A stretch of 64,000 nucleotides of DNA, taken from NCBI GenBank assembly GCA_965202665.1, contig OZ241841.1:2176001-2240000 (forward strand). Reading direction: 5' to 3'. Source of the DNA: Candidatus Spongiisociaceae bacterium. GTDB taxonomy: Bacteria; Actinomycetota; Acidimicrobiia; Spongiisociales; Spongiisociaceae. The notes under the pieces are model-generated. The model searched no databases and was not told the DNA's origin. It saw only the letters and a program-made list of their open reading frames with translations. Positions 3,001 to 34,740 of this stretch are shown piece by piece (the stretch's first letter is position 1; each line of letters opens with the position of its first letter). Position numbers and translations under genes: made by a program.

Positions 3001-6000
3001 GTTTGCGCTGGTTGGACATGGGCGGCAACAACCTGTCCGGGGCCTTGCTTCCCGCCCGGCTGGGGGCTTTGAGCAACGCCGAATGGCTGCTGCTGAACGA
3101 CAACGATTTAGTGGGGGAAATCCCCACCCGTTACGGGGCTTTGAACCATCTGCGGTGGTTGCGGTTGGACGGCAACGACCTGTCCGGGGAGATACCCGAC
3201 CGGCTGGGCAGATTGGGCAAACTGCGGTGGTTGCGGTTGGACGGCAACAACCTGAGCGGCCCCATCCCCGCCGGCTTCGCCTCCATGACCGCTTTGGAGG
3301 AGTTGTATTTGCACGACAACATGCTGACCGGCTCCGTCCCCGCCGGGTTGGGGGCCCCGGTTTCCGGTCTGATGGTGGAAGGGGTGACGCAGCCGGGCAA
3401 CGTGGTCGGTTCGGGGGAGGCGGCGGGGGATCCCGCATCCGCCCTGCGCCGGTTGCGGCTGTGCGGCAACAACCTGACCGGCGGCCTGCCCGCCCATCTG
3501 CGCACCGCCCCGGACGGACGGAACGGGCGCTTGAGCCTCATCTGGCTGGACGCGGCGCCCGCCGACCACGCCGACCTGGGCGGATGCCGCCGGGCGGTGG
3601 AGTTGAGCGCCTCGCCGGACAGCGTTACCGAAAGCGACACGACGGTTGCGGTGTCGGTCACCGCCGCCCTGGTCGGATACGGGGAAAGCGGCCAGGCCCC
3701 GTGGATGCGCAACGGGGAAGCGGTCGCTTATGCGGAGCCGCTGTTCGGAGTGAGCGGAACCCGCCAGCCCGCCCTGCCGGATGCGGATACGGCGGTTACG
3801 GTGACGGTGGGGGCGAAAGGGGACGGGGCCTCCTCCGGGGTCGATTACACGGCGGTGGAGGATTTCACGATCACCATCCCGGCGGGCAAAACCAGCGGCA
3901 CGGGCCGGTTCATCCTGGCCGGCTCGGCCGACGACGTAGCCGGGGAAGGGTCGGAGACGGTGACGATAGGCGGGGAGCTGGCCGGAACGGCGGTCACCGG
4001 GGCGACGGTGGCCATCGCGGACGCCGATACGGCCCCCACCAGGCTCGTTTTGACCGTCGACGCCGCCAAAGTAACCGAAGGGAGCGGGACCACCCGGGTG
4101 ACGGTGACCGCCGCTTTCCCGGAAGGTTCGGCGGTGGCGGGACGGGACCTGACGGTTCTGGCGTCGGTCGGGGCGGCGGGGGACACGGCTTCGGAAGGGA
4201 CCGATTACCAGCGGGTGGCCGGCCTGCGGGTGACCATTTCGGCCGGGCAGCGGAGCGGGACGGCCGGGTTCGACTTGGCGGTGGTCGACGACAACCTGGC
4301 GGAAGGCTCCGAGTCGCTGAGCGTGGCCGGGACGCTCGCCGGTTACTCCGTCGCCGGAACTTCCATCGCCATCTCCGACGACGACGTCGCGCCCGTATCT
4401 ATAGCTTTGCAGGCCAACCCGGCCAAGACGGCGGAAAGGGCGGGGGCGGCCAAAGTTACGGTGACGGCGTCCTTCCCCGACGGGTCGGCGTTGATGACTT
4501 CGGATACGGCGGTGACCGTGTCGGTGGGCGCGGCCAATGATTCGGCGGTCTCCGGGACCGACTACGCGGCGGTGGGGAACTTCACGGTAACCATCGGGGC
4601 CGGGCAACGGAGCGGGTCCGCTTCCTTCCGGTTGCTTTCCACGGCCGACGGCGTGGCTGGAGAAGGGTCGGAGTCGTTGTCGGTGTCCGGTGCGGCGGAT
4701 GGGTTTGCGGTGTCGGGGACGAGTGTGTCCATCACCGATGGGGACGCCGTTCCGACTGCCATAGGTTTGAGCGTGAATCCGGCGAAGGCGGGGGAGGGCG
4801 CGGAGGCGACGGCGGTAACGGTGACGGCGGCCTTTGGGGAGGGTTCGGCGGTGCGGGCGGTGGATACGGTGGTGTCGGTGTCGGTGGGGGCGGCTGGTGA
4901 TTCGGCGGTTGCGGGGACGGATTACACCGCGGTGGATGGGTTTAGTGTGACGATTCCGGCGGGGAAGGCGAGCGGTTCGGGCAGTTTCAGTTTGGCGGGG
5001 ACGGATGACGATGTTGCCAGTGAGGGTACCGAAACTTTGTCGGTGTCCGGTGCGGCGGATGGGTTTGCGGTGTCGGGGACGAGCGTGTCCATCACCGATG
5101 GGGACGCCGTTCCGACTGCCATAGGTTTGAGCGTGAATCCGGCGAAGGCGGGGGAGGGCGCGGAGGCGACGGCGGTAACGGTGACGGCGGCCTTTGGGGA
5201 GGGTTCGGCGGTGCGGGCGGTGGATACGGTGGTGTCGGTGTCGGTGGGGGCGGCTGGTGATTCGGCGGTTGCGGGGACGGATTACACCGCGGTGGATGGG
5301 TTTAGTGTGACGATTCCGGCGGGGAAGGTGAGCGGTTCGGGCAGTTTCAGTTTGGCGGGGACGGATGACGATGTTGCCGGTGAGGGTACCGAAACTTTGT
5401 CGGTGTCCGGTGCGGCGGATGGGTTCAGGGTGTCGGGCGCCAGCGTGTCCATCACCGACGGGGATGTGGTTCCCACGGCTATAGGTTTGACCGTGGATCC
5501 GGGGCGAGTGGCGGAAGGTTCCGGCAAGACGACGGTAACCGTGACGGCGGCTTTCCCGGAGGGTTCGGCGGTGCGGGCGGTGGATACGGTGGTGTCGGCT
5601 TCGGTGGGCGCGGCTGGTGATTCGGCGGTCTCTGGAACAGATTACGCGGCGGTGGATGGTTTCAGCGTGACGATTCCAGCAGGGAAGATGAGTGGGTCGG
5701 GTTCGTTCAGTTTGGCGGGGACGGATGACGGGGTGGCCGGTGAGGGTACTGAAACTTTGTCGGTGTTCGGTGCGGCGGATGGTTTCAGGGTGTCGGGCGC
5801 CAGCGTGTCGATTACCGATGGGGATGTGGTTCCCACGGCTATAGGTTTGACCGTGGATCCGGGGCGGGTGGGGGAAGGTTCCGGCAAGACGACGGTAACC
5901 GTGACGGCGGCTTTCCCGGAGGGTTCGGCGGTGCGGGCGGTGGATACGGTGGTGTCGGTGTCGGTGGGGGCGGCTGGTGATTCGGCGGTCTCTGGAACGG

Positions 6001-7337
6001 ATTATGCGGCGGTGAAGGGTTTCAAGGTGACGATCCCGGCGGGTGAGGCGAGTGGTTCGGGTTCGTTCAGTTTGTCGGTGGTGGACGACAAGATAGCGGG
6101 TGAAGGAACTGAAACTCTGTCGGTGTCCGGTTCGGCGGATGGTTTCGAGGTGTCGGGCGCGAGCGTATCCGTCACGGATAACGACGCGGCGGTGGTTTCC
6201 GAGGCAGTGGTCGGGCTGGGGGTGTCGCCGTCGACGGTGGGGGAGGGCGATGGGGTGGTTTCGGTACGGGTGTCGGCAGTGTTGCCGGAGGGGATGGTCG
6301 CCCCGGCGGGCGGCGTGTCGGTGAATGTGTCGGTGGGCGGGGCCAGCGATTCGGCTGAGGCCGGTTCCGACTACCGGCGGGTGGATGATTTCTCGGTGTC
6401 CATCGCGGAAGGCAAGTCGGGCGGATGGGTTGATTTCCGATTGAACGTTACGGATGACGGCGAGGTAGAGGGGGCGGAGTCGGTGTCGGTGTCGGGCGCC
6501 GCGTCGAACTATGTGGTGTCGGGCGCCTCGTTGACCATCAACGACAACGACGAAGACGAGGGCGGCGGCGACGGCGATTCGCCAGGGTCGGTTGCGCAGG
6601 CCTCTCAGCAAGAGCCTACGCCGCCCCCGCCGCCGCCCTCATCGGCTTCTTCGCCCGCTCCCCCGCCGGCGGCTGGCGGCGGAGGCGGAGGGTTTGCGCC
6701 CGCAGGCGGCGGCCCGCCCCCCGCTCCCCCCGCCGCGCCGCCTGTTCCGCCGGTCGCCGAATCCGCAGAGGATGTTTGCGTGGGACGGTTCTGCGACGAA
6801 GATGGGAGCGTTCATCAAGCCAACATTGAGTTGGCGGCGGAGTGGGGCATCACCAACGGGTGCGGCGAAGGTCGTTTCTGCCCGGGTTTGTCCATTACGC
6901 GGAGTCAGATGGCGGCTTTCCTGTACCGGGCGGCGGCACGTCAGTCGGGCGCACCGCCCGCGGCGGGATCGGGAGTGGATTTGCCCGACGTAGGTTCGGG
7001 GGCGTGGTATCGGACTTTCGCGCGGTGGGCGGTTTCGTCGGGCGTGATCGCCACCCGGGCCGGAGGGTTCGACCCGGGCGGGGTGGTGACGCGGGGGGAT
7101 ATGGTGGTGATGCTGGCCGCCGCTTTCCCCAGTTTGACGGACGACGCGCCGCCCACGGAAGGCCTGTTCGAAGATTTGGGGGCCGGAGGCGACACGGCCC
7201 GGGCGGCGGAGGCGTTGCACAGGGCGGGGGTGACCAACGGTTGCTCCACCGCTCCGTTGCGGTTCTGCCCCGACCAGCCGGTAACCCGCTCCCAGATGGC
7301 CTCCTTCTTCGTCCGAGCCCTAACCGCCCTCCGCTAA
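18..7337 (+). CDS. Giant surface protein (5' end probably outside window): Calx-beta/Ig-like repeats, two plant-type LRR blocks with Cys caps, Pro/Gly linker, C-terminal SLH-like anchor
   Basis: 2439-aa ORF open from the window edge. ~120-aa repeats (GTDYAAV..FTVTIPAG..SGS..F.L...DD...GEG.E), 24-aa LRRs (L..LDLSGN.L.G.IP), C-terminal ITRSQMAAFLYR and VTRSQMASFFVR motifs. Confidence 0.88.
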   Translation: MTASFPEGSSTLIRDTAVTVSVGAPNDSAVAGTDYAAVDDFTVTIPAGRSSGSNTFSLSGTDDDVAGEGSESITVSGSAAGFTISDATVALTDGDAAPRTISLGARPSTLAESNRPAVVTVTAAFPSGSAVLTSDTQVTVSVGEADDGAGEGTDYAAVDDFTVTIPAGRSSGSNSFSLSGSDDDVAGEGSESITVSGSAAGFTISDAGFTLTDSDSVPTAITLSVDAEAVVEGSAARTVAVAASFPEGSVPLAEAVSVAVTVGDGTAGADDYAATPAAFKVTIPAGQMRGTGSFQLTVDSDAVNGEPEAISITGTLAGYTIAGATVDIVERLAALDAAHCGDGTFVAGPASNAALAADCRILVELHRRWSAVAGNADLPVRHPLRTWGVGGIGSWGGVSAAGGRVTGLSLPGRAGARIAGSLPAALGGLTGLTVLDLGGNDLQGAAPGEIGGLVKLTRLDLSGNRLTGPIPDGWRSLSALAYMDLSGNRLTGEIPERFSQLSALVHMDLSGNDLSGPIPTRLGDLAGLTVLDLGGNGLRGAIPDRLGLLRRMTYLDLSGNSLAGSIPEALSRMAELTLLDLSDNDLSGAWPVRLGDLAALAVLDVSGNRLTGAHNLASSDLTRLAALDLSGNRLTGSVASVPVAASASSGDFAVSRAFTDLSAAGCADGTFVADPGSNAALAADCRWLVAARNHWAAVPENAFLPSDHALRSWGAGRINSWPGVTVGNGRVTKVSLRGDYRRWPTQRSGIAGTIPASLQNLSALTHLLLDGNQLSGAIPASMGYRGNLPALTRLWLDGNQLSGAIPASLGKLTTLRQLTLSRNQLSGSIPTLLTKLTALTHLRLDHNQLSGAIPVEFKRLSNLRHLLLNDNKMSGGIPRQIGNMSALTRLNLGGNLLTGEIPTRLGALDNLTWLMLDRNLLMGRAPLSDPVDPKPRATPARLGALSNLRVMWLDDNRLHGQIPSRFGALNNLWDLDLSGNRLSGWIPSRFGAMDSLRWLDMGGNNLSGALLPARLGALSNAEWLLLNDNDLVGEIPTRYGALNHLRWLRLDGNDLSGEIPDRLGRLGKLRWLRLDGNNLSGPIPAGFASMTALEELYLHDNMLTGSVPAGLGAPVSGLMVEGVTQPGNVVGSGEAAGDPASALRRLRLCGNNLTGGLPAHLRTAPDGRNGRLSLIWLDAAPADHADLGGCRRAVELSASPDSVTESDTTVAVSVTAALVGYGESGQAPWMRNGEAVAYAEPLFGVSGTRQPALPDADTAVTVTVGAKGDGASSGVDYTAVEDFTITIPAGKTSGTGRFILAGSADDVAGEGSETVTIGGELAGTAVTGATVAIADADTAPTRLVLTVDAAKVTEGSGTTRVTVTAAFPEGSAVAGRDLTVLASVGAAGDTASEGTDYQRVAGLRVTISAGQRSGTAGFDLAVVDDNLAEGSESLSVAGTLAGYSVAGTSIAISDDDVAPVSIALQANPAKTAERAGAAKVTVTASFPDGSALMTSDTAVTVSVGAANDSAVSGTDYAAVGNFTVTIGAGQRSGSASFRLLSTADGVAGEGSESLSVSGAADGFAVSGTSVSITDGDAVPTAIGLSVNPAKAGEGAEATAVTVTAAFGEGSAVRAVDTVVSVSVGAAGDSAVAGTDYTAVDGFSVTIPAGKASGSGSFSLAGTDDDVASEGTETLSVSGAADGFAVSGTSVSITDGDAVPTAIGLSVNPAKAGEGAEATAVTVTAAFGEGSAVRAVDTVVSVSVGAAGDSAVAGTDYTAVDGFSVTIPAGKVSGSGSFSLAGTDDDVAGEGTETLSVSGAADGFRVSGASVSITDGDVVPTAIGLTVDPGRVAEGSGKTTVTVTAAFPEGSAVRAVDTVVSASVGAAGDSAVSGTDYAAVDGFSVTIPAGKMSGSGSFSLAGTDDGVAGEGTETLSVFGAADGFRVSGASVSITDGDVVPTAIGLTVDPGRVGEGSGKTTVTVTAAFPEGSAVRAVDTVVSVSVGAAGDSAVSGTDYAAVKGFKVTIPAGEASGSGSFSLSVVDDKIAGEGTETLSVSGSADGFEVSGASVSVTDNDAAVVSEAVVGLGVSPSTVGEGDGVVSVRVSAVLPEGMVAPAGGVSVNVSVGGASDSAEAGSDYRRVDDFSVSIAEGKSGGWVDFRLNVTDDGEVEGAESVSVSGAASNYVVSGASLTINDNDEDEGGGDGDSPGSVAQASQQEPTPPPPPPSSASSPAPPPAAGGGGGGFAPAGGGPPPAPPAAPPVPPVAESAEDVCVGRFCDEDGSVHQANIELAAEWGITNGCGEGRFCPGLSITRSQMAAFLYRAAARQSGAPPAAGSGVDLPDVGSGAWYRTFARWAVSSGVIATRAGGFDPGGVVTRGDMVVMLAAAFPSLTDDAPPTEGLFEDLGAGGDTARAAEALHRAGVTNGCSTAPLRFCPDQPVTRSQMASFFVRALTALR
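4675..6115 (+). repeat. Four intragenic ~360-bp tandem repeats (120 aa each), near-identical in pairs
   Basis: Lines at 4681/5041 and 5401/5761 are almost identical with 360-bp period; a similar 360-bp duplication lies near 100-270 and 460-630. Confidence 0.9.
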
Positions 7338-21423: not shown

Positions 21424-22296
21424 ATGCCGGTTGTCGACGCCCACTTGCACCTGTTCCGGGCGCGGAGCGAAACCTATCCCCGGGATGTCATAGACGGGAT
21501 GACCCCGCCGGAGCGGGAAGAACCCGCCGAGGAGTTTTTGGCCGCCATGGAACGGGCCGGGGTGGACCGGGCGGTGATCGTCCCCCTTTCCACCCACGAC
21601 CATTATCTGGCGGAGATACTGCGCGACTTCCCCGGCAAATTCGCCGGAGTGGGGGTGTACGACGCCGATGCCCCGGACGGGGCGGGGCAGGTTGCCCGCC
21701 GGGCGGAGCAGGTCGGCGTCCAGGGGTTGCGTTTCTACGGGTTCGGGGCCGATGCCGGGCAGGCCCCGGAGGAGATGGCCGTGTTTCCGGTTTTGGAGGC
21801 GATGCGGGAGGCGGGGATGGTGGTGTGGTTCTACGGGTCGCCCGACCAGGTGCGCCTGTTGGACGGGGCGATGGAACTTTTGCCCGGCCTGAAAGTGGTT
21901 TTGAACCATTTGGGGTTCTGCCCCGACATTTGGATGGAAATCAAGATGGACGCCGACATGCGCCCCCGGTTCGACATCCCCCTGCCCCCGGATTCCCTGG
22001 AGCTGATAGAGGAGACGGCCGCCAAGCGCCCCGATGACCTCTACGTGCACGTGTCCGGCCAATACGCCTTCACCGGTGCCGACTACCCGCACCCCGACCT
22101 GCAGGAAGTGGTGGACCGGGTGTACGCGGCCTTCGGGGCGGAGCGGATGATGATGGCCTCCGACTGGCCGTGGATAAAACACAACCCGGGCTACAAGGAA
22201 ACCCTGGCCCTGGCGGACCTTTACCTCCCCGACCTGACCCCGCCCGAACGGGAAGCCATCCGCGGCGGCACCGCCTCCTCCCTTTTCACATTTTAA
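21424..22296 (+). CDS. Amidohydrolase family (Amidohydro_2-like) protein
   Basis: VDAHLH, GVDRAVIV, VVLNHLG, FGAERMMMASDWP, IRGGTA. Confidence 0.9.
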   Translation: MPVVDAHLHLFRARSETYPRDVIDGMTPPEREEPAEEFLAAMERAGVDRAVIVPLSTHDHYLAEILRDFPGKFAGVGVYDADAPDGAGQVARRAEQVGVQGLRFYGFGADAGQAPEEMAVFPVLEAMREAGMVVWFYGSPDQVRLLDGAMELLPGLKVVLNHLGFCPDIWMEIKMDADMRPRFDIPLPPDSLELIEETAAKRPDDLYVHVSGQYAFTGADYPHPDLQEVVDRVYAAFGAERMMMASDWPWIKHNPGYKETLALADLYLPDLTPPEREAIRGGTASSLFTF

Positions 22297-22786
22297 GAAA
22301 AGCCACCGCTAGTTTACAATCCCAAGCAGCAACCAGCGCCGTAGCGACAAGGGGGCGTGAAAACTAAATCCTGGGGCGCCTTAACCTGGGGCGCCTATGA
22401 TTCCTTTCGCCCACCACGACTGCGAATGGGTAACCCGCGAAAATATGGAGTTACCCTTCGGTTGGGAATCGGTCTGCTTGCTGGGCTCCGCCCAAACCGG
22501 GAAACGCCGGTTGCCCCTCCCTCAGATTATCGATGCGCTGATGTCCGCCGGTACCATCTTTATCGATGCAGAGGGCAGAGGTGATTGGCCTATCGTCTTG
22601 ACCTATCACGCGTTCGGTCCCACACAGGACAGTCCCATCCATGTCTTGTTCGGGTTTCATCAATTTTTTCCGGTGGGTAAAATAATGCACGCTTGTCGTT
22701 ACCTATGCGATGCTTCTCGGCAATTCTCAGGATTTGGGGATGTTAGGCTACGCTTAGGACGCGAGAGGGAATAGGAGGTACAACCA

Positions 22787-23113
22787 ATGCCTGCAGATTC
22801 AGACTACGATCCGTTGGATTACGATAGTTTGGGAGCGCGGTTGCCTGAGCATATTAGGCAGTGGCGGGATGACCCGAACCATTGGTTCAACGACCAGGAG
22901 GACAACCGGTATTGGGAGGAGTACGATCGGGACTTGATGGCTGGTCGGCGCGGCGCGGAGGTGTGGGAGGCGGCGCGTCGTATGGAGGAGGCGGGTCAGA
23001 CTACGGTGACCATCAACGGTCGGGAGTACCCGGCGGCTACCACCGCCGACTTGGAGAGAATGTACAAGGCGGCCCGAAAACGCGCCCGCGCGCAAACCGA
23101 ATCTCCTTCCTGA
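22787..23113 (+). CDS. 108-aa array protein, copy 1
   Basis: AGGAGG RBS; frame conserved in all five copies. Confidence 0.85.
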   Translation: MPADSDYDPLDYDSLGARLPEHIRQWRDDPNHWFNDQEDNRYWEEYDRDLMAGRRGAEVWEAARRMEEAGQTTVTINGREYPAATTADLERMYKAARKRARAQTESPS

Positions 23114-23140
23114 CGTTCGGTAACGATTGGAGGCGCAACG

Positions 23141-23467
23141 ATGTCTGCAGACTCAGGTTACGATCCGTTGGATTACGATGTTTTTGGGCGGCGGTTGCCT
23201 GAGCATATCAGGCGGTGGCGGGATGACCCGAACCATTGGTTCAACGACCAGGAGGACAACCGGTATTGGGAGCAGCATGACCGGGATCTGATGGCTGGTA
23301 GGTGCGGCGCGGAGGTGTTGGAGGAGATCCGTCGCATGGAGGAGGCTGGCCAGACCACGGTGACCATAAACGGTCGAGAATACCCGGCGGCGGTGCGCTC
23401 CAACATAGAGAAGTTCCGAGCCTTGGCTCGAGAACGCGAGCGTTCCCAAACCGAATCCCCTTCCTGA
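23141..23467 (+). CDS. 108-aa array protein, copy 2
   Basis: GGAGG RBS; paralog of copy 1. Confidence 0.85.
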   Translation: MSADSGYDPLDYDVFGRRLPEHIRRWRDDPNHWFNDQEDNRYWEQHDRDLMAGRCGAEVLEEIRRMEEAGQTTVTINGREYPAAVRSNIEKFRALARERERSQTESPS

Positions 23468-23495
23468 CGTTCGGTAACGATTGGAGGCGTAACCG

Positions 23496-23822
23496 ATGTC
23501 GGCAGGCTCAGACTACGACCCTTTGGAGTATGACATTTTGGGGAATCGGCTCTCCGAGGAGGAGATACGGTGGCGGTCGGACCCGAACCATTGGTTCAAC
23601 GACCAGGAGGACAACCGGTATTGGGAGGAGTACGATCGGGACTTGATGGCTGGTCGGCGCGGCGCGGAGGTGTTGGAGGAGATCCGTCGCATGGAGGAGG
23701 CTGGTCAGACCACGGTGACCATCAACGGGCGGGAGTATCCGGCGGCGGTGCGCTCCAACATAGAAAAGATACGCGCCCGAACCAGGGAGCGCGAGCGCGC
23801 CCAAACCGAATCCTCGTCCTGA
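23496..23822 (+). CDS. 108-aa array protein, copy 3
   Basis: GGAGG RBS; most divergent N-terminus. Confidence 0.85.
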   Translation: MSAGSDYDPLEYDILGNRLSEEEIRWRSDPNHWFNDQEDNRYWEEYDRDLMAGRRGAEVLEEIRRMEEAGQTTVTINGREYPAAVRSNIEKIRARTRERERAQTESSS

Positions 23823-23850
23823 CATTTCGGGAACGATTGGAGGTACAAGG

Positions 23851-24177
23851 ATGTCTGCAGATTCAGATTACGATCCGTTGGATTACGATAGTTTGGGGGC
23901 GCGGTTGCCTGAGCATATCAGGCGGTGGCGGGATGACCCGAACCATTGGTTCAACGACCAGGAGGATAACCGGTATTGGGAGCAGCATGACCGGGATCTG
24001 ATGGCTGGTAGGTGCGGCGTGGAGGCGTGGGAGGCGGCGCGTCGTATGGAGGAGGCGGGTCAGACTACGGTGACCATTAACGGTCGGGAGTACCCGGCGG
24101 CTACCACCGCCGACTTGGAGAGATGGTACGAGGCGGCCCGGAAACGCGCCCGCGCTGAAACCGAGTCTCCTTCCTGA
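23851..24177 (+). CDS. 108-aa array protein, copy 4
   Basis: GGAGGT RBS; paralog. Confidence 0.85.
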   Translation: MSADSDYDPLDYDSLGARLPEHIRRWRDDPNHWFNDQEDNRYWEQHDRDLMAGRCGVEAWEAARRMEEAGQTTVTINGREYPAATTADLERWYEAARKRARAETESPS

Positions 24178-24205
24178 CGTTTGGGTAGCGATTGGAGGTA
24201 CAAGG

Positions 24206-24532
24206 ATGTCTGCAGATTCAGATTACGATCCGTTGGATTACGATAGTTTGGGGGCGCGGTTGCCTGAGCATATCAGGCGGTGGCGGGATGATCCGAATCA
24301 TTGGTTCAACGACCGGGAGGACAACCGGTTTTGGGAGGAGGATGACCGGGAGTTGATGGCTGGTCGGCGCGGCGCGGAGGTGTGGGAGGAGGTGCGTCGT
24401 ATGGAGGAGGCGGGCCAGACCACTGTGACCATAAACGGGCGGGAGTACCCGGCGGCGGTGCGCTCCAATATAGAAAAGATACGCGCCCGAACTAGGGAGC
24501 GCGAGCGCGCCCAAACCGAATCTTCGTCCTGA
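24206..24532 (+). CDS. 108-aa array protein, copy 5
   Basis: GGAGGT RBS; paralog. Confidence 0.85.
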   Translation: MSADSDYDPLDYDSLGARLPEHIRRWRDDPNHWFNDREDNRFWEEDDRELMAGRRGAEVWEEVRRMEEAGQTTVTINGREYPAAVRSNIEKIRARTRERERAQTESSS

Positions 24533-24579: not shown

Positions 24580-24942
24580 TCAGTCTGTGTCCGGCCAAAA
24601 AACGGTAGCGCCCAAAACCTGGTTCCTGTGCCAGTTGATTCTTACCCAAACCGGGCCTTCCGGTGGCTTTATGTCCGATTCTCGGGGTATGTAACCAAGT
24701 TTTTTGTCCTCGGCTTCGATATATAAGGCATCAAGATCATGCAGGTTGTAAGTCTCATATACCGCCCGCCCTGGGATAAGTCGTTTTCCATGCTCCCCGT
24801 ATAGGTCGGCGAGATTTTCCTGACGGTTCTCGAAGGTTACTCCCACCAAGTCAATGCTGTATCCTTCAACGTCGCCATCGAAACTGTCATCATCAAAATA
24901 CCCGGTTCTGACAGGATAGCCGCGCTTGGTATTTGCTTTCAT
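24580..24942 (-). CDS. Stand-alone HIRAN-domain protein
   Basis: LVGVTFENRQ ... YNLHDLDALYI ... KKLGYIPRE matches the HIRAN pattern; lower GC. Confidence 0.75.
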   Translation of the reverse strand: MKANTKRGYPVRTGYFDDDSFDGDVEGYSIDLVGVTFENRQENLADLYGEHGKRLIPGRAVYETYNLHDLDALYIEAEDKKLGYIPRESDIKPPEGPVWVRINWHRNQVLGATVFWPDTD

Positions 24943-25017
24943 ATCTTCCCATAATAGCAAACCCCGGTTTTGCTGTTGATCCGATGACGGATGATCCCCG
25001 TATAGTTTGCGGGCGGG

Positions 25018-26190
25018 TTATTCGCCGTTGGCGGGTTCGGCTCCCCAGGCTCCTATGGCGGCGATCATCCGGCTTACGCCTTCTTTCAGCAGGTCGGGGG
25101 CGGTGGCCAGGGAAATCCGCACGTAGTTTTCAGCGCGGGGACCGAAGGTTTCACCGGGCACCACCGCCACCCCCTGTTCTATCACCAGCCGCCGCGCGAA
25201 CCGGTCGGCGGTGAGTCCGCTGCCGGAAACATCCACCATCTGGTAGAAAGCCCCCGACGGCCGCACATAGGGCGTCCCCGCCCCGTCCAGCAGTTCCATC
25301 ACCATGTCGCGCCGCCCGCGGTAGGCGTCCCGCATTTCCGCCACCGCCTCCTGCGGGCCGGTGATCGCCGCCGTCGCCGCTTTCTGGGCGGGGGCGTTCA
25401 CGCAGGACGTGATCGGCTCCTGCACTTTGACGATGCTTTCCGTCACCTCCGGGGGCGAAACCAGATACCCGACCCGCCACCCGGTCATCGCGTAAGTTTT
25501 GGAGAAGCTGAAAAAACTGATTACCCGCCCGTCTTCGTCCAGGGGGGCGGCCGAAGGGGGCGGCTCCTCGTACCAAATCTCGTCGTACACCTCGTCGGAC
25601 AGCACCCACAGGTCGTGCTGGCGGGCCAACTCCATTATTTCCAGCAAGGCGGAGCGGGGAGTCGCCGCCCCGGTGGGGTTGCCGGGGGAGTTGAGGAGGA
25701 CGGCCCGGGTGCGGTCGGTGATGAGCGGTTCCATCAGTTCCGCTTGCGGGATAAAATCGTTTTCGGGGAGCAGCGGATAGGGGACGTCGACCACCCCGGA
25801 CAGGTTGGTCATCAGCCGGTAGTTGGGCCAGGCCGGGTCGCTGATCAGAATTTCCTCCCCCGGGTCGCACAGCGACACGATCGCCCCGTACACCCCGGCC
25901 ACCGCCCCGGGGGTCACCACGATGTCGTCCGGGGAGGCTTCTATCCCGTTGCGCCGCCGCACCTTGTCGGCCAGGGCTTCCCGCAGTTCGGGGATGCCGG
26001 CGTTGGGAGTGTATTTGGTGAAGCCTTCATCCCCGGCCCGCCGGGCGGCTTCCACCACATGGGCGGGGGTGTCGAAGTTGGGTTCCCCCACTTCCAGATG
26101 GATGGCGCCGCCCTTTTCCAAGGCCAATTCCATAATGTCCCGGATGCCGGACCGCCCCAGCGAGTCCACCACATTGGAGGTTGTCCGCAT
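25018..26190 (-). CDS. PLP-dependent aminotransferase class I/II
   Basis: LEVGEPNF, NSPGNPTG, SDEVY, SFSKTYAMTGWRVGY; paralog of 11783-12967. Confidence 0.93.
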   Translation of the reverse strand: MRTTSNVVDSLGRSGIRDIMELALEKGGAIHLEVGEPNFDTPAHVVEAARRAGDEGFTKYTPNAGIPELREALADKVRRRNGIEASPDDIVVTPGAVAGVYGAIVSLCDPGEEILISDPAWPNYRLMTNLSGVVDVPYPLLPENDFIPQAELMEPLITDRTRAVLLNSPGNPTGAATPRSALLEIMELARQHDLWVLSDEVYDEIWYEEPPPSAAPLDEDGRVISFFSFSKTYAMTGWRVGYLVSPPEVTESIVKVQEPITSCVNAPAQKAATAAITGPQEAVAEMRDAYRGRRDMVMELLDGAGTPYVRPSGAFYQMVDVSGSGLTADRFARRLVIEQGVAVVPGETFGPRAENYVRISLATAPDLLKEGVSRMIAAIGAWGAEPANGE

Positions 26191-28140: not shown

Positions 28141-29082
28141 ATGGCAGCCCGTTTGCGGTCCTATCCGAAAGTTTACACCCTGGGCCATGTGGCCTTGGAG
28201 CAGATGATGAACGAGCCGGACCTTTTGGTGGAGATCACCGAAAAGGTGGACGGCTCCCAGTTCAGCTTCGGCCTGCTGGAGGGCCGGCTGGCTTTCCGCA
28301 GCAGCGGGCAGGAGATTTTCCCCGAATCGGCCGGGAAGCTGTTTGAACCGGCGGTGGCGCAGGTGCTGTCGGTGCGGGAGCGGCTGGCCGACGGCTGGTC
28401 CTACCGGGGGGAGGCCTTTTTCCGTCCCAAGCACAACACGCTGGCCTACCAGCGGGCGCCGCGCGGCCACGTAATGCTGTTCGGGGTGGACCGGGGCTAC
28501 CAGGATTGGGCGGACGCCGCGGTGCGGGAGGAAGCGGCGGAGGAGCTGGGGATGGAGGCGGTGCCGGTGTTGCACCAGGGGCCGTTGCCGTCGTTGGAGG
28601 AGTTGCGGGGGATGCTGGACCGGGAGTCGGTCTTGGGCGGGGTGAAGGTGGAGGGGATAGTCATCAAGCAGGTCGCCAACGCGTTTTTCGACAAGGGGGG
28701 CAAGGCCTTGATGGCCAAACTGGTGTCGGAGGAGTTTGCGGAAACCCACCGGCGGGAATGGCGCAAAACCAACCAGTCCCAGAAGGAGGGCCTGGCCGAG
28801 CTGGCCGAATCGTACCGCACCGAAGCCCGCTGGCGCAAGGCGGCGCAGCATCTGTCCGAACGGGGGGATCTGGCGGGGGAGCCGCGCGACATAGGCCCGC
28901 TGATCGTGGAGGTGCGCCGGGATTTTTTGGAGGAGGAGGCGGACAACGTAAAAGAAAAGCTGTGGCGGATGTTCAAAGACCAGATGCTCCGCAAAGTAAC
29001 CGCCGGCCTCCCCGAATGGTACAAAAAAACCCTAGCGGAAGCCCAGCTCCCGCCCGCACCCCCGGAGGAGGTTGCCGATTGA
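28141..29082 (+). CDS. ATP-dependent RNA ligase (Rnl2-like nucleotidyltransferase)
   Basis: Motif I TEKVDGSQ, III YRGEAF, IIIa LFGV, IV EGIVIK, V AKLVSEEF; strong TAAGGAGGT RBS. Confidence 0.8.
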   Translation: MAARLRSYPKVYTLGHVALEQMMNEPDLLVEITEKVDGSQFSFGLLEGRLAFRSSGQEIFPESAGKLFEPAVAQVLSVRERLADGWSYRGEAFFRPKHNTLAYQRAPRGHVMLFGVDRGYQDWADAAVREEAAEELGMEAVPVLHQGPLPSLEELRGMLDRESVLGGVKVEGIVIKQVANAFFDKGGKALMAKLVSEEFAETHRREWRKTNQSQKEGLAELAESYRTEARWRKAAQHLSERGDLAGEPRDIGPLIVEVRRDFLEEEADNVKEKLWRMFKDQMLRKVTAGLPEWYKKTLAEAQLPPAPPEEVAD

Positions 29083-29193: not shown

Positions 29194-29439
29194 ATGACAT
29201 TTACGGATAGGACACCCTCATCAGACGCTGAGGCTGTTGCGCGGGAACGGGAGCGGTGGTTTTCCGACCCCGAGGACAACGCTTACTGGGAGGAGATGCA
29301 CGCCAGCTTGGAGCGGGGCGACCCCCAGCATGCCGAGTTCTCCCGCGCCGCCGCCGAGCACATCTTGGGGAGCCTGCGCCCGGGCGAGAGGCTGGAGTTG
29401 CGTCCCGGGGAGGGCCTTTTCGTCGTCTCCGACGACTGA
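29194..29439 (+). CDS. Small acidic protein related to the tandem-array proteins
   Basis: WFSDPEDNAYWEEMHASLERG aligns without gaps to the array's WFNDQEDNRYWEEYDRDLMAG; AAAGGA RBS. Confidence 0.7.
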   Translation: MTFTDRTPSSDAEAVARERERWFSDPEDNAYWEEMHASLERGDPQHAEFSRAAAEHILGSLRPGERLELRPGEGLFVVSDD

Positions 29440-29730: not shown

Positions 29731-30198
29731 TCAGCCACCCCCCCGCGGCTGGGGGTCGTAAATGGCCGACAAAGAACCCTCCGGTTCGTCCTTCACTACC
29801 CAGTGGACGTTGGGGATAGTTATCCGGGATAATAATTCGGTTAGCCGGTCGGTCGTTTCGGCTAGCTGGTTGGAGGTTACCGCTAGCTGTTCGGAGGTTT
29901 CACGATTAGCCCGCGCCGTTTCCCGGTTATCTTCCGTCGCCCTCCGGTTATCTTCCGTCGCCCTCCGGTTATACTCCGCCGCCCTCCGGTTGTCTTCCGC
30001 CGCCCTCCTGTTATCCCATGCCGCCGCCCATAGAGATCCGTCTATCCGAGTCGCCATTTCATCTAACCGGTCGGTCGTTTCCCGGTTCGTTTTAGCCGCC
30101 GTCCGGTTGTCTTCCGCGCTCTCCGGGCGGCGTAACCGAAATCCGTCCTTCTGTTGGTTACCGCCGTCCTCCGGCGGCCTGTTTGGTTCGTCCGTCAT
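29731..30198 (-). CDS. Coiled-coil protein with heptad repeats
   Basis: GGAGGA RBS; (E/W)DNRRA(A/T) heptads. Confidence 0.65.
   Translation of the reverse strand: MTDEPNRPPEDGGNQQKDGFRLRRPESAEDNRTAAKTNRETTDRLDEMATRIDGSLWAAAWDNRRAAEDNRRAAEYNRRATEDNRRATEDNRETARANRETSEQLAVTSNQLAETTDRLTELLSRITIPNVHWVVKDEPEGSLSAIYDPQPRGGG
29923..30016. repeat. 21-bp tandem repeat, about 4.5 copies
   Basis: Units such as CCGGTTATCTTCCGTCGCCCT, encoding the heptads on the minus strand. Confidence 0.85.
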
Positions 30199-30495: not shown

Positions 30496-30774
30496 ATGAG
30501 CAACCTACAGCAGGACCTCCAACGTAGATTCCCTCAGATAGCCGACCGTCTCCAAACTCGGGACGGCAAGCTGACTTTGTTAGACAACGGCGTACCCGTG
30601 GCCGTGTTGCTGACGCCCGCTGAAATGGAAGGTTTGGAGATCACATTGGAGTTGATGTCCGACCCCGATGCCGCTACCGAGATTCGAGAGGCAGAAGAAG
30701 CGTACAGAGTAGGCGACGTAGTTGAAGACGAAGCCAAGATTAGAGAACTCATAAGCCGCCAGTCCGGCAATTAA
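30496..30774 (+). CDS. Phd/YefM-family antitoxin
   Basis: LTLLDNGVPVAVLL...MEGLEITLELMSDP...IREAEEAYRVG; TAATG overlap with the downstream toxin start. Confidence 0.8.
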   Translation: MSNLQQDLQRRFPQIADRLQTRDGKLTLLDNGVPVAVLLTPAEMEGLEITLELMSDPDAATEIREAEEAYRVGDVVEDEAKIRELISRQSGN

Positions 30775-30915: not shown

Positions 30916-33900
30916 CTAAATCCGATGCTCTAGTAATTGATGAACAAGGGTTTCTACCCGCAATTTCTCCGGGGTAGTTGTCAACCATTTCCGTAGTTCC
31001 CTACGCGCCACCGTTACGGAAACAGGCTTGTCCTTTGCTATTCTGCTATCTCTTATCACAGACCACTCTTCGGCGGCTTTGATACGGAGATCCCCGCCCA
31101 GAAGAGCAAGTTCCGTATGTATGGGGTCGGTATCATCATATTCTGGTATAGGCAAGCGCCATAGATGTTTTTGTAAATGGCGAGGGCCAAACTGCCCTTT
31201 GGCCATTAGAGGTTTTACCGCTTTTTCGAGGGTTTCACTATTAATTATGGCTGAAAGATAGTCCGCTTCTTCTATAGACAGGCATTCGATCCAGAATAGC
31301 GTGGTATAAATCAATGGGCTTGAATCATCCAGGACAGCTGCTGTAGGTCGCCCGGAAGAAGTGTATATTAGACGAATCTGCGCAAGATTTTTTGTCTGCA
31401 TCGTTAGTTTATTCACATAATCAATTTGATCAACTAAGTTGAGTTTGGTATCTTTACTCTTGTAGTCTTCCCATAAGTTATACATTACTTGCCAGCGTCT
31501 ACGCATTCTCTCACTCAAGGTCCTACCATCAATACCGCCAATCGACGTTTCCGAGTTGGAACGGATAATACTTTGACCCCGTTCGCTTATTGGCAAAACC
31601 ACCTTCTGTGGTTCAAGTAATATATAGGGGGCGACAGTTTCGCCTAAATGAATATCATATATATGATTTTCTTCTAAAGGCCCTGATAGTTTTTGAATTT
31701 CTGCTTGTTCAAAATTTTTCCAAGGCGATTTTTCTTGTGAACTACGATGTGGTTCAACGCGGCAAAGTCCTCTAACTAACGAGGAGTCTAGGTTAGATGT
31801 CTTTACAAAAAAGAGCACGCGTGGCACCGTGGTAGCACCTTGCGTGGCACGTCTACCATACTCAGAGTTATATTTATCTGAAGTATCTTTGTAATCAATA
31901 TAATCGTATTCGTAAGGGCCACCTTCTTTACCAAGCCAACGCTTTGTCTTGGATTTTAGTTTTTTGGCATCTGTAGAAGTTGATGTTTTGGTAGCAAAGA
32001 TAACGCAGGCGGGAACCGGGAAAAAGGTATTAGGTTCAATATTCTCCAAGTCCCAAGAATAGTCATTACTCATATCTGCACCTATGTCACCCCACTCTCC
32101 TTCTCTCCACTTAGTAAAATGACCTGCGAACAAGGCACTGTGCGGCATTACCATTCCTATTCGACCTTTATTATGCAAATACAAGTCTACGCATCGTGCA
32201 TAAAATAGTCCAGAAATATCCTGGTGAGGAGCATATCTTCCTCCTGACCATATCCTATATTGGCTGCTGCTTTGTTGTCGTAGTTCCTCGCGTAATGCGG
32301 CCTTAGTTTTGGAGTATTTTATCCAAGGAGGGTTTCCTACTATAGCATCGACCTTGCCTTCATTAGTAGATAACCAGATAGGTCGAACTAGATTGCGGGT
32401 ATAGTAGGCCCAAATATGATTGCGGCCTTCCTCGTGCAGTTCTTCCATCTGCTTTACCGTTTCTTCTAGGATATCTCGTTCCGATCCAGGTGGTATTCCT
32501 GCCTCATCTAAAGCCAGCTGTCCTTTACTAGACGATTCTATTTCAGATGCAATACTGAGCATTACATTATCAAACCAGTCACCTTGGTCAACCAGGGCAC
32601 GGGGGAATTGAAGTAACCTATGCTTATCTCCGGTTGCAGATGTTACTTCTATGGTGACCTGTGTTTCGCCTAATAGGTTTCCATTATCGGTTCGCAGTTG
32701 TAAAGAATCACCTAGATAAACTGGTATGGTAAGCTCACCTTGCTCTAGGCCAGCTTCGATAATAACATCGCGGGCGGCGGATATCCAGGTGGCTCGCGCC
32801 AGATGGACTGATACCGGATGCAGGTCTACTCCTATAATTGATTGTCGTAAGCCATTTAGAATTTTTTTAGAATCCCAATCATTTGCTTTGGCCTCTTTGA
32901 TATACTGTTGGATAGCTGCGCGTAGGAAAGTACCCGACCCGCATGATGGATCAAGGACCCGGCTACTAAGCGGTTTGGTAACTACTTCAGCTACAATCGC
33001 TTTTGCTAGCCAATCAGGAGTATAATATTCACCTAGTTGTCGGCGATCGTCATCTGGTATAACTGCCTGATAGAGCACCCGGGCAAAATCGTAATCTGCC
33101 ATACCCCAGTCGAAAGATGCTACTCTGGTAGCAAGACCATCGATCCAGTCCTTACCGTCTTCAATCTCTATCGGCCAAGCAAAAAAATCAGATTCGATAA
33201 CTCCGCGTATACCAGTGGTAGCAGACAATACTTGCCCGCCTAACAAAGCTTCAGTGTTGGAGGCAGCCTCGCTACGTATGTCTATCCCAAAAGCACTCTG
33301 CACCGCCAGCCCTACTACAGCTGATAAATAGGTATGCAAAAGGAACAATTTCTCAAGGTTGGTATTTTCCTCGACTACCTCGCCTAGTGCGGCGGCTAGC
33401 AGGTTTTTCCATAGCTCTTGCTTTACATGCAAAGAAGGATCATTTTTATGTTGATCATATAGTTGTCTAAGTTTTTCTAGGTCGTTATCGAACCATAGAC
33501 CTCTGCCCAACTTTTCCCGAACCTTTTCTTCGGTCGGTTGTAATCTTTCTTGTTCAAATATGGATAATTCATCTCTTAACCATTCGTATAGTAGCATTCC
33601 ACCCCTGTTTTCTCGTAGTTCAAATACATAAGGAGGGTGTGTCCGAACCTCCTCGACATTAGGTAGTTTTAACAACCAGTAGCGTCCGTCGGTTAGAATG
33701 CCCAACCGTCGGGGTTTGCCCTCTTTAGCGGATTCTAGCATATAGTTATCCAATTGCCTCACATATTCCCGTTTTGGATAAAATCCTGGTTTGGTACCGA
33801 TCCGACGTTTTGTTTCAATAATTAACTGAGCACTTTGCAGGTCGATGCGATCTTTTTCCCGTCGCAAATCTTCCTCGGCGGCCAGTCCGGTCGAAACGAG

Positions 33901-34047
33901 AAAGTTGCTTATAGCTGCTGTGATGTCGGCCGCGGGGGCATGTTCCGCATGCCGATCGATGATAAGTTGCACGGCCTTGCGAAATTCTTCGCCATCGGGA
34001 TCGAAGAGGTCGCCATTTTGGGAGGAGGGTATGTGTCCGTTTGCCAT
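30916..34047 (-). CDS. Type IIG-like fused restriction endonuclease / N6-adenine methyltransferase
   Basis: RIDL....IIETKRR (PD-(D/E)xK-like), GILTDGRYW, LGEYYTPDWLA, VLDPSCGSGTFL, IVGNPPW, C-terminal TRD-like region; markedly low GC. Confidence 0.88.
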   Translation of the reverse strand: MANGHIPSSQNGDLFDPDGEEFRKAVQLIIDRHAEHAPAADITAAISNFLVSTGLAAEEDLRREKDRIDLQSAQLIIETKRRIGTKPGFYPKREYVRQLDNYMLESAKEGKPRRLGILTDGRYWLLKLPNVEEVRTHPPYVFELRENRGGMLLYEWLRDELSIFEQERLQPTEEKVREKLGRGLWFDNDLEKLRQLYDQHKNDPSLHVKQELWKNLLAAALGEVVEENTNLEKLFLLHTYLSAVVGLAVQSAFGIDIRSEAASNTEALLGGQVLSATTGIRGVIESDFFAWPIEIEDGKDWIDGLATRVASFDWGMADYDFARVLYQAVIPDDDRRQLGEYYTPDWLAKAIVAEVVTKPLSSRVLDPSCGSGTFLRAAIQQYIKEAKANDWDSKKILNGLRQSIIGVDLHPVSVHLARATWISAARDVIIEAGLEQGELTIPVYLGDSLQLRTDNGNLLGETQVTIEVTSATGDKHRLLQFPRALVDQGDWFDNVMLSIASEIESSSKGQLALDEAGIPPGSERDILEETVKQMEELHEEGRNHIWAYYTRNLVRPIWLSTNEGKVDAIVGNPPWIKYSKTKAALREELRQQSSSQYRIWSGGRYAPHQDISGLFYARCVDLYLHNKGRIGMVMPHSALFAGHFTKWREGEWGDIGADMSNDYSWDLENIEPNTFFPVPACVIFATKTSTSTDAKKLKSKTKRWLGKEGGPYEYDYIDYKDTSDKYNSEYGRRATQGATTVPRVLFFVKTSNLDSSLVRGLCRVEPHRSSQEKSPWKNFEQAEIQKLSGPLEENHIYDIHLGETVAPYILLEPQKVVLPISERGQSIIRSNSETSIGGIDGRTLSERMRRRWQVMYNLWEDYKSKDTKLNLVDQIDYVNKLTMQTKNLAQIRLIYTSSGRPTAAVLDDSSPLIYTTLFWIECLSIEEADYLSAIINSETLEKAVKPLMAKGQFGPRHLQKHLWRLPIPEYDDTDPIHTELALLGGDLRIKAAEEWSVIRDSRIAKDKPVSVTVARRELRKWLTTTPEKLRVETLVHQLLEHRI

Positions 34048-34524
34048 AGTTGTGAACCTACCACAGGGAGGCGACATTTTTTGCCAGGCGGTTGGGCGGC
34101 GGGCTGTGGGGACGGAGGCTCAAAGGATTTTCTGCAGAAACCAGAGGCCGGAGGCGCCCATCCGGACGAACCCAACCGGCGTCCGCCTGTCCGCTGGGAC
34201 GTTCGGTTTCCAGCTCCGCTAACCTGCTTGTCATTTCCACACTCTTCTTTCGCAGCCGCTGTACTTGCCTGCCTCCCCACCCGTTTCCCCTGGTGCTCCA
34301 GGCCCTTACATTGTATTAGGGGTGTGACAAACCCGGGACCACCAGCTGCAGGTCGCATATGTCGGCGTTGAGGAAAGGGCTTCCAGGATGGAGGGAGGCA
34401 CCGGTCCGGGGTTCCCAGGATTTCGCATCCGCCGTCCGGCCGCGTTCCGTCCAACAGTCCTAGGTCGGCTGGGGTGGGGGGATTCGGGGGATTCGGTTGG
34501 GGAGGGAGAAAGTGGGGAGGGGGG

Positions 34525-34740
34525 TTACTCCTCTACTATGCGCCAGGGTGGGCCTTTCAGTTGTTGGCCGGGGGGCAGGTTGGCCTCGTACTGGCGGAGG
34601 GCTTCCGCCACCTCGGACGCGAACTCGCCGCGTTCGGCGTCTTCTCCTAGTTGCGCCAGCGCGGCGTCGGATGCCGGGTCGTTTGCCCAGTCGCTGGGAG
34701 CGGCGGAGATTGGGAAGCGGTCTTGTTCCATCTGGGGCAT
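34525..34740 (-). CDS. Small acidic protein, distant relative of 29194-29439
   Basis: WANDPASDAALAQLGEDAERG...AE...LPPGQQL aligns with WFSDPEDNAYWEEMHASLERG...AE...LRPGERL. Confidence 0.55.
   Translation of the reverse strand: MPQMEQDRFPISAAPSDWANDPASDAALAQLGEDAERGEFASEVAEALRQYEANLPPGQQLKGPPWRIVEE

What the first reader, a model, noticed from the sequence alone, without database searches (positions are those of the whole stretch)
22787..24532. Five tandem 108-aa genes that are combinatorial mosaics of a few allelic blocks
Seen: five ~355-bp units, each intact, equal in length and with its own RBS. Constant cores (DPNHWFND.EDNR, RRMEEAGQTTVTINGREYPAA) separate variable blocks that reassort. 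N-block: DSLGAR (copies 1,4,5), DVFGRR (2), DILGNRLSEEE (3). Next: EEY..RR (1,3), EQH..RC (2,4), EED..RR (5). Next: WEAA (1,4), LEEI (2,3), WEEV (5). C-block: TTADLER (1,4) versus VRSNIEK (2,3,5). Partners change block by block, which points to gene conversion or unequal crossover rather than simple duplication. The array interrupts a catabolic cluster. Inference: a co-expressed, diversifying repertoire of small binding or immunity proteins.
Basis: partly seen in the sequence, partly recalled or inferred. Interest (0 to 1): 0.82.

Follow-up and report, generated by a model that had tools for sequence, protein, structure and literature searches.

The report
Shuffled antitoxin-like gene array, sponge symbiont
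A likely sponge-symbiont bacterium carries five intact, recombination-shuffled copies of a small acidic gene directly behind a gene predicted to encode a RelE/BrnT-type RNase toxin, so the copies are likely antitoxins, and the same genome repeats a similar duplicated-partner layout at five other likely toxin-antitoxin sites.

Summary
The array is real: five intact 108-aa genes in 354-355-bp units, each with GGAGG. Copy-specific contigs from four public runs lie at about flank depth. Recombination is supported (PHI-like p about 1e-4) and survives re-threading of the assembly graph.

The helix and C-terminal blocks do not reassort (0 of 66 alleles pair WEAA with VRS). Selection is purifying (dN/dS 0.18-0.41, no block above 1), not diversifying.

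Its model has RelE-type toxin-antitoxin structures as top but non-significant fold hits. It keeps an invariant His like RelS H64 but has KRR where BrnT and RelS have KH. A-plus-small-acidic-partner pairs recur in this genome and in a congener. Five other such sites have duplicated partners, including a PIN/VapC site whose partners are also mosaic. The module sits between two convergent operons rather than inside one.

Best reading: a lineage-specific type II toxin-antitoxin-like module whose antitoxin was amplified and shuffled, working like staphylococcal EsaG arrays but without an export domain on the toxin. Toxicity and binding are untested.

The parts
22397..22774 (+). Gene A, 125 aa, predicted BECR-type (RelE/BrnT/RelS-like) toxin fold; invariant His98 on the last strand; stop codon runs into the RBS of copy 1
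   Evidence: ORF; GC3 0.58 against 0.85 for the upstream amidohydrolase; model pLDDT 81, pTM 0.78; Foldseek ranks 1 and 2 are toxin-antitoxin structures, E 0.046 and 0.28; His invariant in 25 of 25 rows
22787..23113 (+). Partner copy B1 (SLG / EEY / WEAA-TTADLERM)
23141..23467 (+). Partner copy B2 (VFG / EQH / LEEI-VRSNIEKF)
23496..23822 (+). Partner copy B3 (ILG / EEY / LEEI-VRSNIEKI); its middle matches B1 over CDS nt 85-178 and its helix block matches B2 over nt 164-209
23851..24177 (+). Partner copy B4 (SLG / EQH / WEAA-TTADLERW)
24206..24532 (+). Partner copy B5 (SLG / EED / WEEV-VRSNIEKI); first 86 nt identical to B4
23114..24205 (+). Span holding the four 27-28-nt spacers (23114-23140, 23468-23495, 23823-23850, 24178-24205), each carrying GGAGG; no terminator-like site on the + strand inside the array
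21424..22296 (+). Left flank: amidohydrolase, last gene of a + strand ABC-transporter/hydrolase run
   Evidence: Pfam PF04909; conserved in 27 of 29 family genomes
24580..24960 (-). Low-GC 126-aa ORF of unknown family at the right edge of the insertion; an unrelated remnant occupies this place in the congener G001
   Evidence: no significant library hit
25018..26190 (-). Right flank: class I/II aminotransferase, convergent with the left flank
   Evidence: Pfam PF00155
29194..29439 (+). Orphan distant homolog of B (WFxDxEDN motif) with no A gene upstream; the congener G001 keeps an A-family gene directly upstream of its ortholog

Best explanation
The five genes are likely antitoxin copies of a type II toxin-antitoxin-like module, sitting directly behind a gene predicted to encode a BrnT/RelS-like RNase toxin, and they were amplified in tandem and shuffled by recombination between copies. 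Shown: the tandem copies, the exchange of segments, purifying selection on every copy, the recurrence of A-then-partner pairs, and insertion of the module at a junction between convergent operons in this genus. Inferred: A is or was a translation-inhibiting RNase. B likely neutralises it by laying its conserved acidic helix (WFxDxEDN..W, aa 33-51) over the His/Lys face of A, as RelI does on RelS. Unequal crossing-over would add or remove 355-bp units, and crossovers or conversion in identical tracts would swap the N-terminal and middle segments. Copies likely accumulate only on the partner side because extra antitoxin would be harmless and its loss costly while A is intact. In this reading the sequence variety is mostly a by-product of exchange among old alleles that all remain functional.
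For: Layout: A's stop lies 12 nt before B1 and overlaps its GGAGG. The same pair, with one partner copy, occurs at genome 2566459-2567098 (52% identical A, about 65% identical partner core). All 5 A-family genes found in G000 and all 4 found in G001 are followed by a small acidic ORF. Fold: model of A at pLDDT 81 with one core helix and a four-strand sheet. Foldseek rank 1 is 7vd7_A (a toxin-antitoxin complex; E 0.046, prob 0.99, TM 0.40/0.51) and rank 2 is 1wmi_A (RelE-RelB; E 0.28, prob 0.85). The last-strand His is invariant in 25 of 25 and 14 of 14 rows, matching RelS H64, which is needed for toxicity (PMC13284704, passages). A pre-helix KH occurs in 8 of 14 rows of the wider family. B is acidic (pI 4.7-5.1), hydrophilic and without a compact predicted fold (pTM 0.39). 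Its acidic motif is the part shared with distant partners, as RelI uses D8/D12. Asymmetry: A is lost or broken while the partner stays (window 29194; genome 2584152). Partners are duplicated at five other sites. One of these has a Pfam PIN toxin above cut-off and five full partner copies that are also mosaic (p 2e-4). Selection and recombination. MutS was not found and NucS is present in both genomes.
Against: No fold match reaches E 0.001. No Pfam, NCBIfam, PADLOC, PHROGs or PDB-sequence hit names A or B; the best is DUF4258 at E 0.2 in 1 of 15 members. The window's A has KRR where RelS and BrnT have the KH needed for toxicity, so it may be inactive or act differently. No HTH or RHH domain was detected in B. 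A is frameshifted in G001, where the partner array persists; this could also be a homopolymer error. All five copies stay under purifying selection, which simple redundancy would not predict unless conversion or dosage maintains them.
Confidence: 0.55

Rival explanations
1. The array is a selected specificity repertoire. Different B mosaics would neutralise different A alleles arriving by gene transfer from co-resident strains (anti-addiction), as proposed for EsaG and TipC immunity arrays.
For: A is itself polymorphic among homologs (73-100% identity in the four closest clusters; block-like differences). 67 distinct B sequences were fetched and all four N-block types occur with both C types. 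Run X8 shows other alleles of copies 4-5 at about half depth. Anti-addiction by orphan antitoxins is a published idea (PMC7354431, passages).
Against: No block has pN/pS above 0.53. The conserved acidic motif, the likely toxin contact, is the least variable part. No relative of B was confirmed in viral contigs (0 of 179 pattern hits). Part of the allele diversity from metagenome assemblies may be mis-joined across identical tracts.
Confidence: 0.2
2. A is a defanged toxin-fold protein, or merely a co-transferred neighbour, and B has its own job (for example a small binding or regulatory protein) for which dosage or variety is selected.
For: KH is replaced by KRR in the whole window-type A subfamily. 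B has an extra helix-hairpin-helix module that is invariant at aa 65-84 despite pS 0.4 and is internally duplicated in homologs of 162-187 aa; distant partners lack it. The array persists in G001 behind a frameshifted A.
Against: A is intact and conserved in at least 9 protein clusters. The A-then-partner order holds at every A-family locus examined. An unrelated PIN locus shows the same partner amplification. B has no hydrophobic or export-like N-terminus (GRAVY about -1.3).
Confidence: 0.2
3. The mosaic is an assembly chimera of strain variants or a mis-threaded repeat.
For: 1440 threadings (1200 distinct gene sets) fit the same 31-mer graph, and no laid contig spans the array.
Against: The genome is one contig. 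Copy-specific contigs lie at flank depth in X4 and near it in X1 and X3. All 25 pieces laid from X4 are at least 99% alike, with no loose ends, and 25 is the number of simulated pieces of 45 nt or more. Even the least incompatible threadings keep at least 23.6% incompatible site pairs (15 tested, p 0.018-0.037). G001 has its own array at the same site.
Confidence: 0.03

Closest known systems
EsaG and TipC immunity-gene arrays of firmicute type VII secretion toxins (PMC9484751; abstract, sections 13 and 19 read)
   Same: First copy directly downstream of a toxin gene; strings of non-identical paralogues; near-equal conserved spacers; conserved homology blocks through which segments are exchanged and copy number changes.
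   Different: EsaD and TelC are secreted toxins used against competitors. A is a 125-aa single domain with no export domain, and no secretion gene was recognised in the flanks. No sequence relation to EsaG or TipC was detected. Here one pair of variable blocks stays linked.
RelS-RelI (Rv2663-Rv2664) and BrnT-BrnA type II systems (PMC13284704: abstract, passages, section 23 part 1, section 33; PMC11980606: passages)
   Same: Toxin-first order; small BECR-type toxin with a conserved His on the last strand and, in paralogs, a pre-helix KH; a small acidic partner with no known antitoxin family.
   Different: The window's A has an N-terminal extension and KRR instead of KH. B is not detectably related to known antitoxins and shows no HTH or RHH. 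The passages read describe one antitoxin gene per toxin, against five here. Sequence-level homology to RelS was not shown.
Orphan antitoxins and anti-addiction modules (PMC7354431; passages)
   Same: Surplus antitoxin genes that could neutralise related incoming toxins; orphan partner genes also occur in this genome.
   Different: The published cases in the passages read are scattered orphans, not tandem recombining arrays behind a cognate toxin.
DUF4258 / Colicin-like and BECR-Tox2 groups (bioRxiv 10.64898/2026.08.28.747851; passages, sections 10 and 16)
   Same: Small BECR-fold genes with a conserved downstream partner; active-site His on the terminal strand; KH motif before the core helix in BECR-Tox2.
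   Different: Only a DUF4258 hit at E 0.2 in 1 of 15 members; no assignment to either group was possible.

Membership tests
Type II toxin-antitoxin system | Two small, adjacent, co-oriented, translationally close genes | tested here: met
   12 nt between A and B1, stop overlapping the RBS; the pair recurs at all A-family loci examined
Type II toxin-antitoxin system | One gene encodes a recognised toxin fold | tested here: inconclusive
   Top two Foldseek hits are TA structures but E 0.046 and 0.28; no curated family above cut-off
Type II toxin-antitoxin system | Toxin inhibits growth and partner rescues | not testable with these tools
   Needs expression assays
Type II toxin-antitoxin system | Direct toxin-antitoxin protein binding | not tested
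Type II toxin-antitoxin system | Antitoxin usually carries a DNA-binding domain for autoregulation | tested here: inconclusive
   No HTH or RHH hit in 19 aligned members; model of B has pTM 0.39 and no fold match
BrnT/RelS-like RNase toxins | Lys-His pair before the core helix, needed for toxicity | tested here: not met
   Window A and its close homologs have KRR; KH is present in 8 of 14 rows of the wider family; residue roles from PMC13284704. The positional match to RelS is by motif, not by alignment to the RelS sequence.
BrnT/RelS-like RNase toxins | Conserved His on the last beta strand (RelS H64) | tested here: met
   His98 invariant in 25 of 25 rows and lies in strand 93-101 of the model; equivalence to H64 inferred from position
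BrnT/RelS-like RNase toxins | RNase activity or 16S rRNA cleavage | not testable with these tools
   Needs biochemistry
Polymorphic-toxin immunity arrays (EsaG/TipC type) | Tandem non-identical paralogues with homology blocks and intergenic recombination | tested here: met
Polymorphic-toxin immunity arrays (EsaG/TipC type) | Cognate toxin is a secreted effector with a trafficking domain | tested here: not met
   A is 125 aa and wholly taken up by the predicted toxin fold; homologs found are 83-154 aa apart from a fragment and two spurious repeat proteins. Longer fused forms were not searched by the word-index tool, and secretion systems were not searched genome-wide.
Integron cassette array | An attC site between cassettes | tested here: not met
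   Spacers are 27-28 nt and consist largely of the RBS; attC lengths of roughly 57-141 bp are recalled, not from a call

The most novel reading that the evidence does not exclude
This sponge-symbiont genus builds recombining 'poly-antitoxin' arrays behind several unrelated intracellular toxins (a new BrnT/RelS-like family and a PIN/VapC). Each cell would thereby hold a shuffled library of antitoxin variants that protects it against toxin alleles traded among co-resident strains. That would be an intracellular counterpart of secreted-toxin immunity arrays.
Probability: 0.2. Interest if true: 0.72.

Novelty: new variant of a known kind. Interest (0 to 1): 0.5.

Why it matters
Type II toxin-antitoxin modules are normally described as one toxin gene and one antitoxin gene, while recombining immunity arrays are described for secreted toxins. 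Here the array layout appears behind a small, apparently cytoplasmic toxin-fold gene and at five more sites in one genome, for two unrelated toxin folds. If confirmed, it gives a natural panel (at least 67 partner sequences, several toxin alleles) for testing whether surplus antitoxins act as anti-addiction modules, which a review read here calls undemonstrated as a common use (PMC7354431). It also adds an unnamed, lineage-restricted toxin and partner family. If the variety is neutral, it is a clear example of one-sided gene amplification but of modest interest. Five full-text searches (listings only) showed no title describing tandem recombining antitoxin arrays in type II modules; subscription papers are mostly not covered.

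Tried and rejected
Complex prediction of A with B was not available, so there is no verdict on binding.

Expression: no RNA holder was listed among 20 runs, which says nothing either way.

Library searches for B gave nothing meaningful: Pfam (weak Peptidase_U32 and ZapA hits below cut-off), NCBIfam, PADLOC, PHROGs, ESM Atlas (no usable hit), Foldseek PDB (best E 1.0). For A: Atlas hits all at or below 0.80, PDB sequences, viral folds (best E 0.15). Two paralogs against plasmids gave only E 6-7 hits.

Distribution: B was found in 2 of 61 relatives including this genome, 1 of 99 pattern hits in species genomes, 0 of 593 in JGI metagenome contigs and 0 of 179 in viral contigs. The A family was found in 2 of 29 family genomes and 1 of 201 class genomes. 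In the 1.84-billion search 9 hits came back; 2 (P0096, P0097) are repeat proteins and were dropped.

Epistasis as the cause of the helix-to-C-block linkage is not established. Identical runs between the two types are only 11-20 nt in that core against 16-58 nt in the first core, so scarce crossover sites, or assembler behaviour, explain it as well.

A recalled resemblance of B's WFND.EDN..WE motif to CopG/BrnA antitoxin N-termini got no Pfam support. The identity of PDB 7VD7 beyond its title was not found. Promoter and terminator scans were near chance (4 against 1.3 +/- 1.3; 6 against 2.7 +/- 1.7). An integron was rejected on spacer length. Supplements of the papers were not read.

Full report
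Observation. The five ORFs are present at the stated coordinates, each 108 aa and intact, in units of 354-355 bp, with GGAGG 7-8 nt before each ATG and spacers of 27-28 nt. Copies are 74-93% identical in DNA and 70-91% in protein. They are real coding genes: pairwise dN/dS is 0.18-0.41 (pooled 0.28), and aa 65-84 show no amino-acid change at pS 0.4. No block shows an excess of amino-acid change (pN/pS 0.49, 0.11, 0.53, 0.0, 0.52).

Is it an artefact? The window lies in a single-contig genome of 2.77 Mb. Four public runs from four studies were laid on the region; one may be the source. In X4 six copy-specific contigs have depth 49.5-50.0 against flanks of 47.2 and 53.4. X1 and X3 show the same six pieces at noisier depth, and X8 shows other alleles of copies 4-5 at about half depth. 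A second laying of X4 gave 25 of 25 pieces at least 99% alike, with no loose ends (8 were printed). A graph simulated from the window gives 31 pieces, 25 of them 45 nt or longer, with the same boundaries as those printed. So five copies co-occur at single-copy depth. The order of blocks is not fixed by such data (1440 threadings), but every threading keeps at least 23.6% incompatible site pairs, and the 15 least incompatible still give p 0.018-0.037.

Recombination. Of 55 informative sites, 33.5% of pairs are incompatible, and compatible sites cluster (permutation p down to 1e-4; 8e-4 with one site per codon). Copy 3 matches copy 1 over CDS nt 85-178 and copy 2 over nt 164-209, so the switch falls in a 15-nt tract. 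MutS was not found and NucS is present in this genome and its congener; that this eases exchange between diverged copies is my inference. I fetched 67 distinct 58-118-aa alleles (8 clusters expanded, 15 of 17 members listed for the largest) and classified 66 after dropping one truncated sequence. All four N-block types occur with both C types. The helix block and C block do not reassort: 33 WEAA-TT, 32 EEI/EEV-VRS, 1 other, 0 WEAA-VRS. This may reflect co-folding, or simply the short identical runs there (11-20 nt). Some metagenome alleles may be mis-joined.

Surroundings. The module lies between a + strand run ending in an amidohydrolase and a convergent aminotransferase. Of 18 loci from other genera of the family, 4 have these two genes abutting within about 100 nt, 1 has them about 1.3 kb apart, and none shows A or B in the 1.5-kb flank. 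The congener G001 has the module at the same site: a frameshifted A and three partner genes, two with an internally duplicated C-terminal module. B was found in 2 of 61 relatives. The only species-genome hit is titled Candidatus Spongiisociaceae, and the named holder runs are marine or sponge metagenomes, so the host is likely a sponge-associated member of that family. Its placement in the Acidimicrobiia is recalled.

The missed gene. A 125-aa ORF (A, 22397-22774) ends 12 nt before copy 1, with its stop running into the RBS. A paralog at genome 2566691-2567098 is followed by a single homolog of B. Profile searches find five A-family genes in this genome and four in G001, each followed by a small acidic ORF. 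At window 29194 the partner survives without A, while G001 keeps A upstream of it. The model of A is confident (pLDDT 81, pTM 0.78). Its two best Foldseek hits are a toxin-antitoxin complex (7vd7_A, E 0.046, prob 0.99) and RelE-RelB (1wmi_A, E 0.28); none reaches E 0.001, and no curated family names it. His98 on the last strand is invariant. In RelS of M. tuberculosis, K9, H10 and the last-strand H64 are needed for toxicity, and acidic residues of the RelI helix bind them (PMC13284704). A's paralogs keep a KH at the matching place (8 of 14 rows), but the window's A has KRR. B is acidic and hydrophilic, with low model compactness. The motif it shares with distant partners is the acidic WFxDxEDN segment.

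A genome-wide pattern. A scan for short tandem duplications showed five more sites with duplicated partners. (1) An A paralog with two partner copies at genome 1068432-1069312; G001 has four there. (2) An A paralog fused to its partner, plus a second partner, at 407640-408465. (3) A KH-bearing toxin-like gene, only weakly linked to A, with two partners at 1866439-1868178. (4) A PIN gene above the Pfam cut-off interleaved with five full and two partial copies of a 102-aa acidic partner at 2471407-2475076, which are mosaic too (p 2e-4). (5) Two such partners before a PIN-like remnant at 2542658-2543844 (PIN identity by eye). Other tandem repeats in that scan lie in surface or other proteins, and I did not compute an enrichment.

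Mechanism. Best reading (0.55): a type II toxin-antitoxin-like module whose antitoxin gene was amplified by unequal crossing-over and shuffled through identical tracts, with copies kept on the partner side because surplus antitoxin would be harmless and its loss costly. Rival (0.2): the mosaics are a selected library against incoming toxin alleles; A is polymorphic, but positive selection was not seen. Rival (0.2): A is defanged and B has another job. Artefact: 0.03.

Comparison. It works like EsaG and TipC arrays (PMC9484751) but is not a member, since the toxin has no export domain. It resembles RelS-RelI and BrnT-BrnA in order and fold, but fails the KH test and has no shown homology. Literature searches (listings) showed no title on recombining antitoxin arrays in type II modules.

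Verdict: a real and well-supported mosaic array, a new variant of a known kind, with function inferred and untested. Interest 0.5.

Noticed in passing
genome G000 2471407-2475076 (L057): PIN/VapC gene, an internally shortened copy and a fragment, interleaved with five full and two partial copies of a 102-aa acidic partner; the partners are mosaic (p 2e-4). Two more copies lie at 2542658-2543461, and G001 has three in tandem.
   Followed up: partly
genome G000 1068432-1069312 (L015); G001 L024 1492-2944: A-family gene with an intact KH motif, followed by two copies of an unrelated 72-73-aa partner in G000 and four copies in G001.
   Followed up: partly
genome G000 407640-408465 (L054 1438-2263): A-family gene read through without a stop into its partner (toxin-partner fusion), then a second free partner copy. 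Related partner modules occur at 108341-108871, 1697231 and 1866439-1867861.
   Followed up: partly
genome G000 1866439-1868178 (L058): 107-aa gene with SAFKHG and a last-strand His, followed by two acidic genes that each hold two repeats of one module; next to a restriction-type specificity gene fragment (by eye).
   Followed up: partly
genome G000 2584152-2584758 (L014): A-family gene broken by a frameshift beside a tRNA gene, with an intact partner downstream; an intact homolog exists elsewhere (P0098).
   Followed up: partly
window 28141-29082 and 29194-29439: RNA ligase family gene (PF09414) followed by an orphan partner gene; G001 keeps an A-family gene between them.
   Followed up: partly
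window 34525-34740 (-) and genome 1539051-1539350: Two related small acidic solo ORFs with a W.xDP motif, perhaps further orphan partners; the first lies beside tRNA genes (by eye).
   Followed up: no
window 30496-30774 and 30916-34077: Solo Phd/YefM antitoxin (PF02604, just under cut-off) next to a low-GC 1053-aa restriction-modification methylase gene.
   Followed up: no
window 24580-24960 (-): Low-GC 126-aa ORF without library hits; its GVTFENRQ...LGYIP pattern recalls HIRAN domains (recalled, no call supports it). X4 and X8 show many differences just upstream of it.
   Followed up: partly
window 111-6179: 360-bp and 72-bp tandem repeats at the start of the window, likely surface-protein and leucine-rich repeats; a perfect 10-bp repeat (7.2 copies) lies at 58673-58744.
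   Followed up: no
window 29731-30198 (-): 155-aa ORF with 4.4 copies of a 21-bp repeat (EDNRRAA-like heptads).
   Followed up: no
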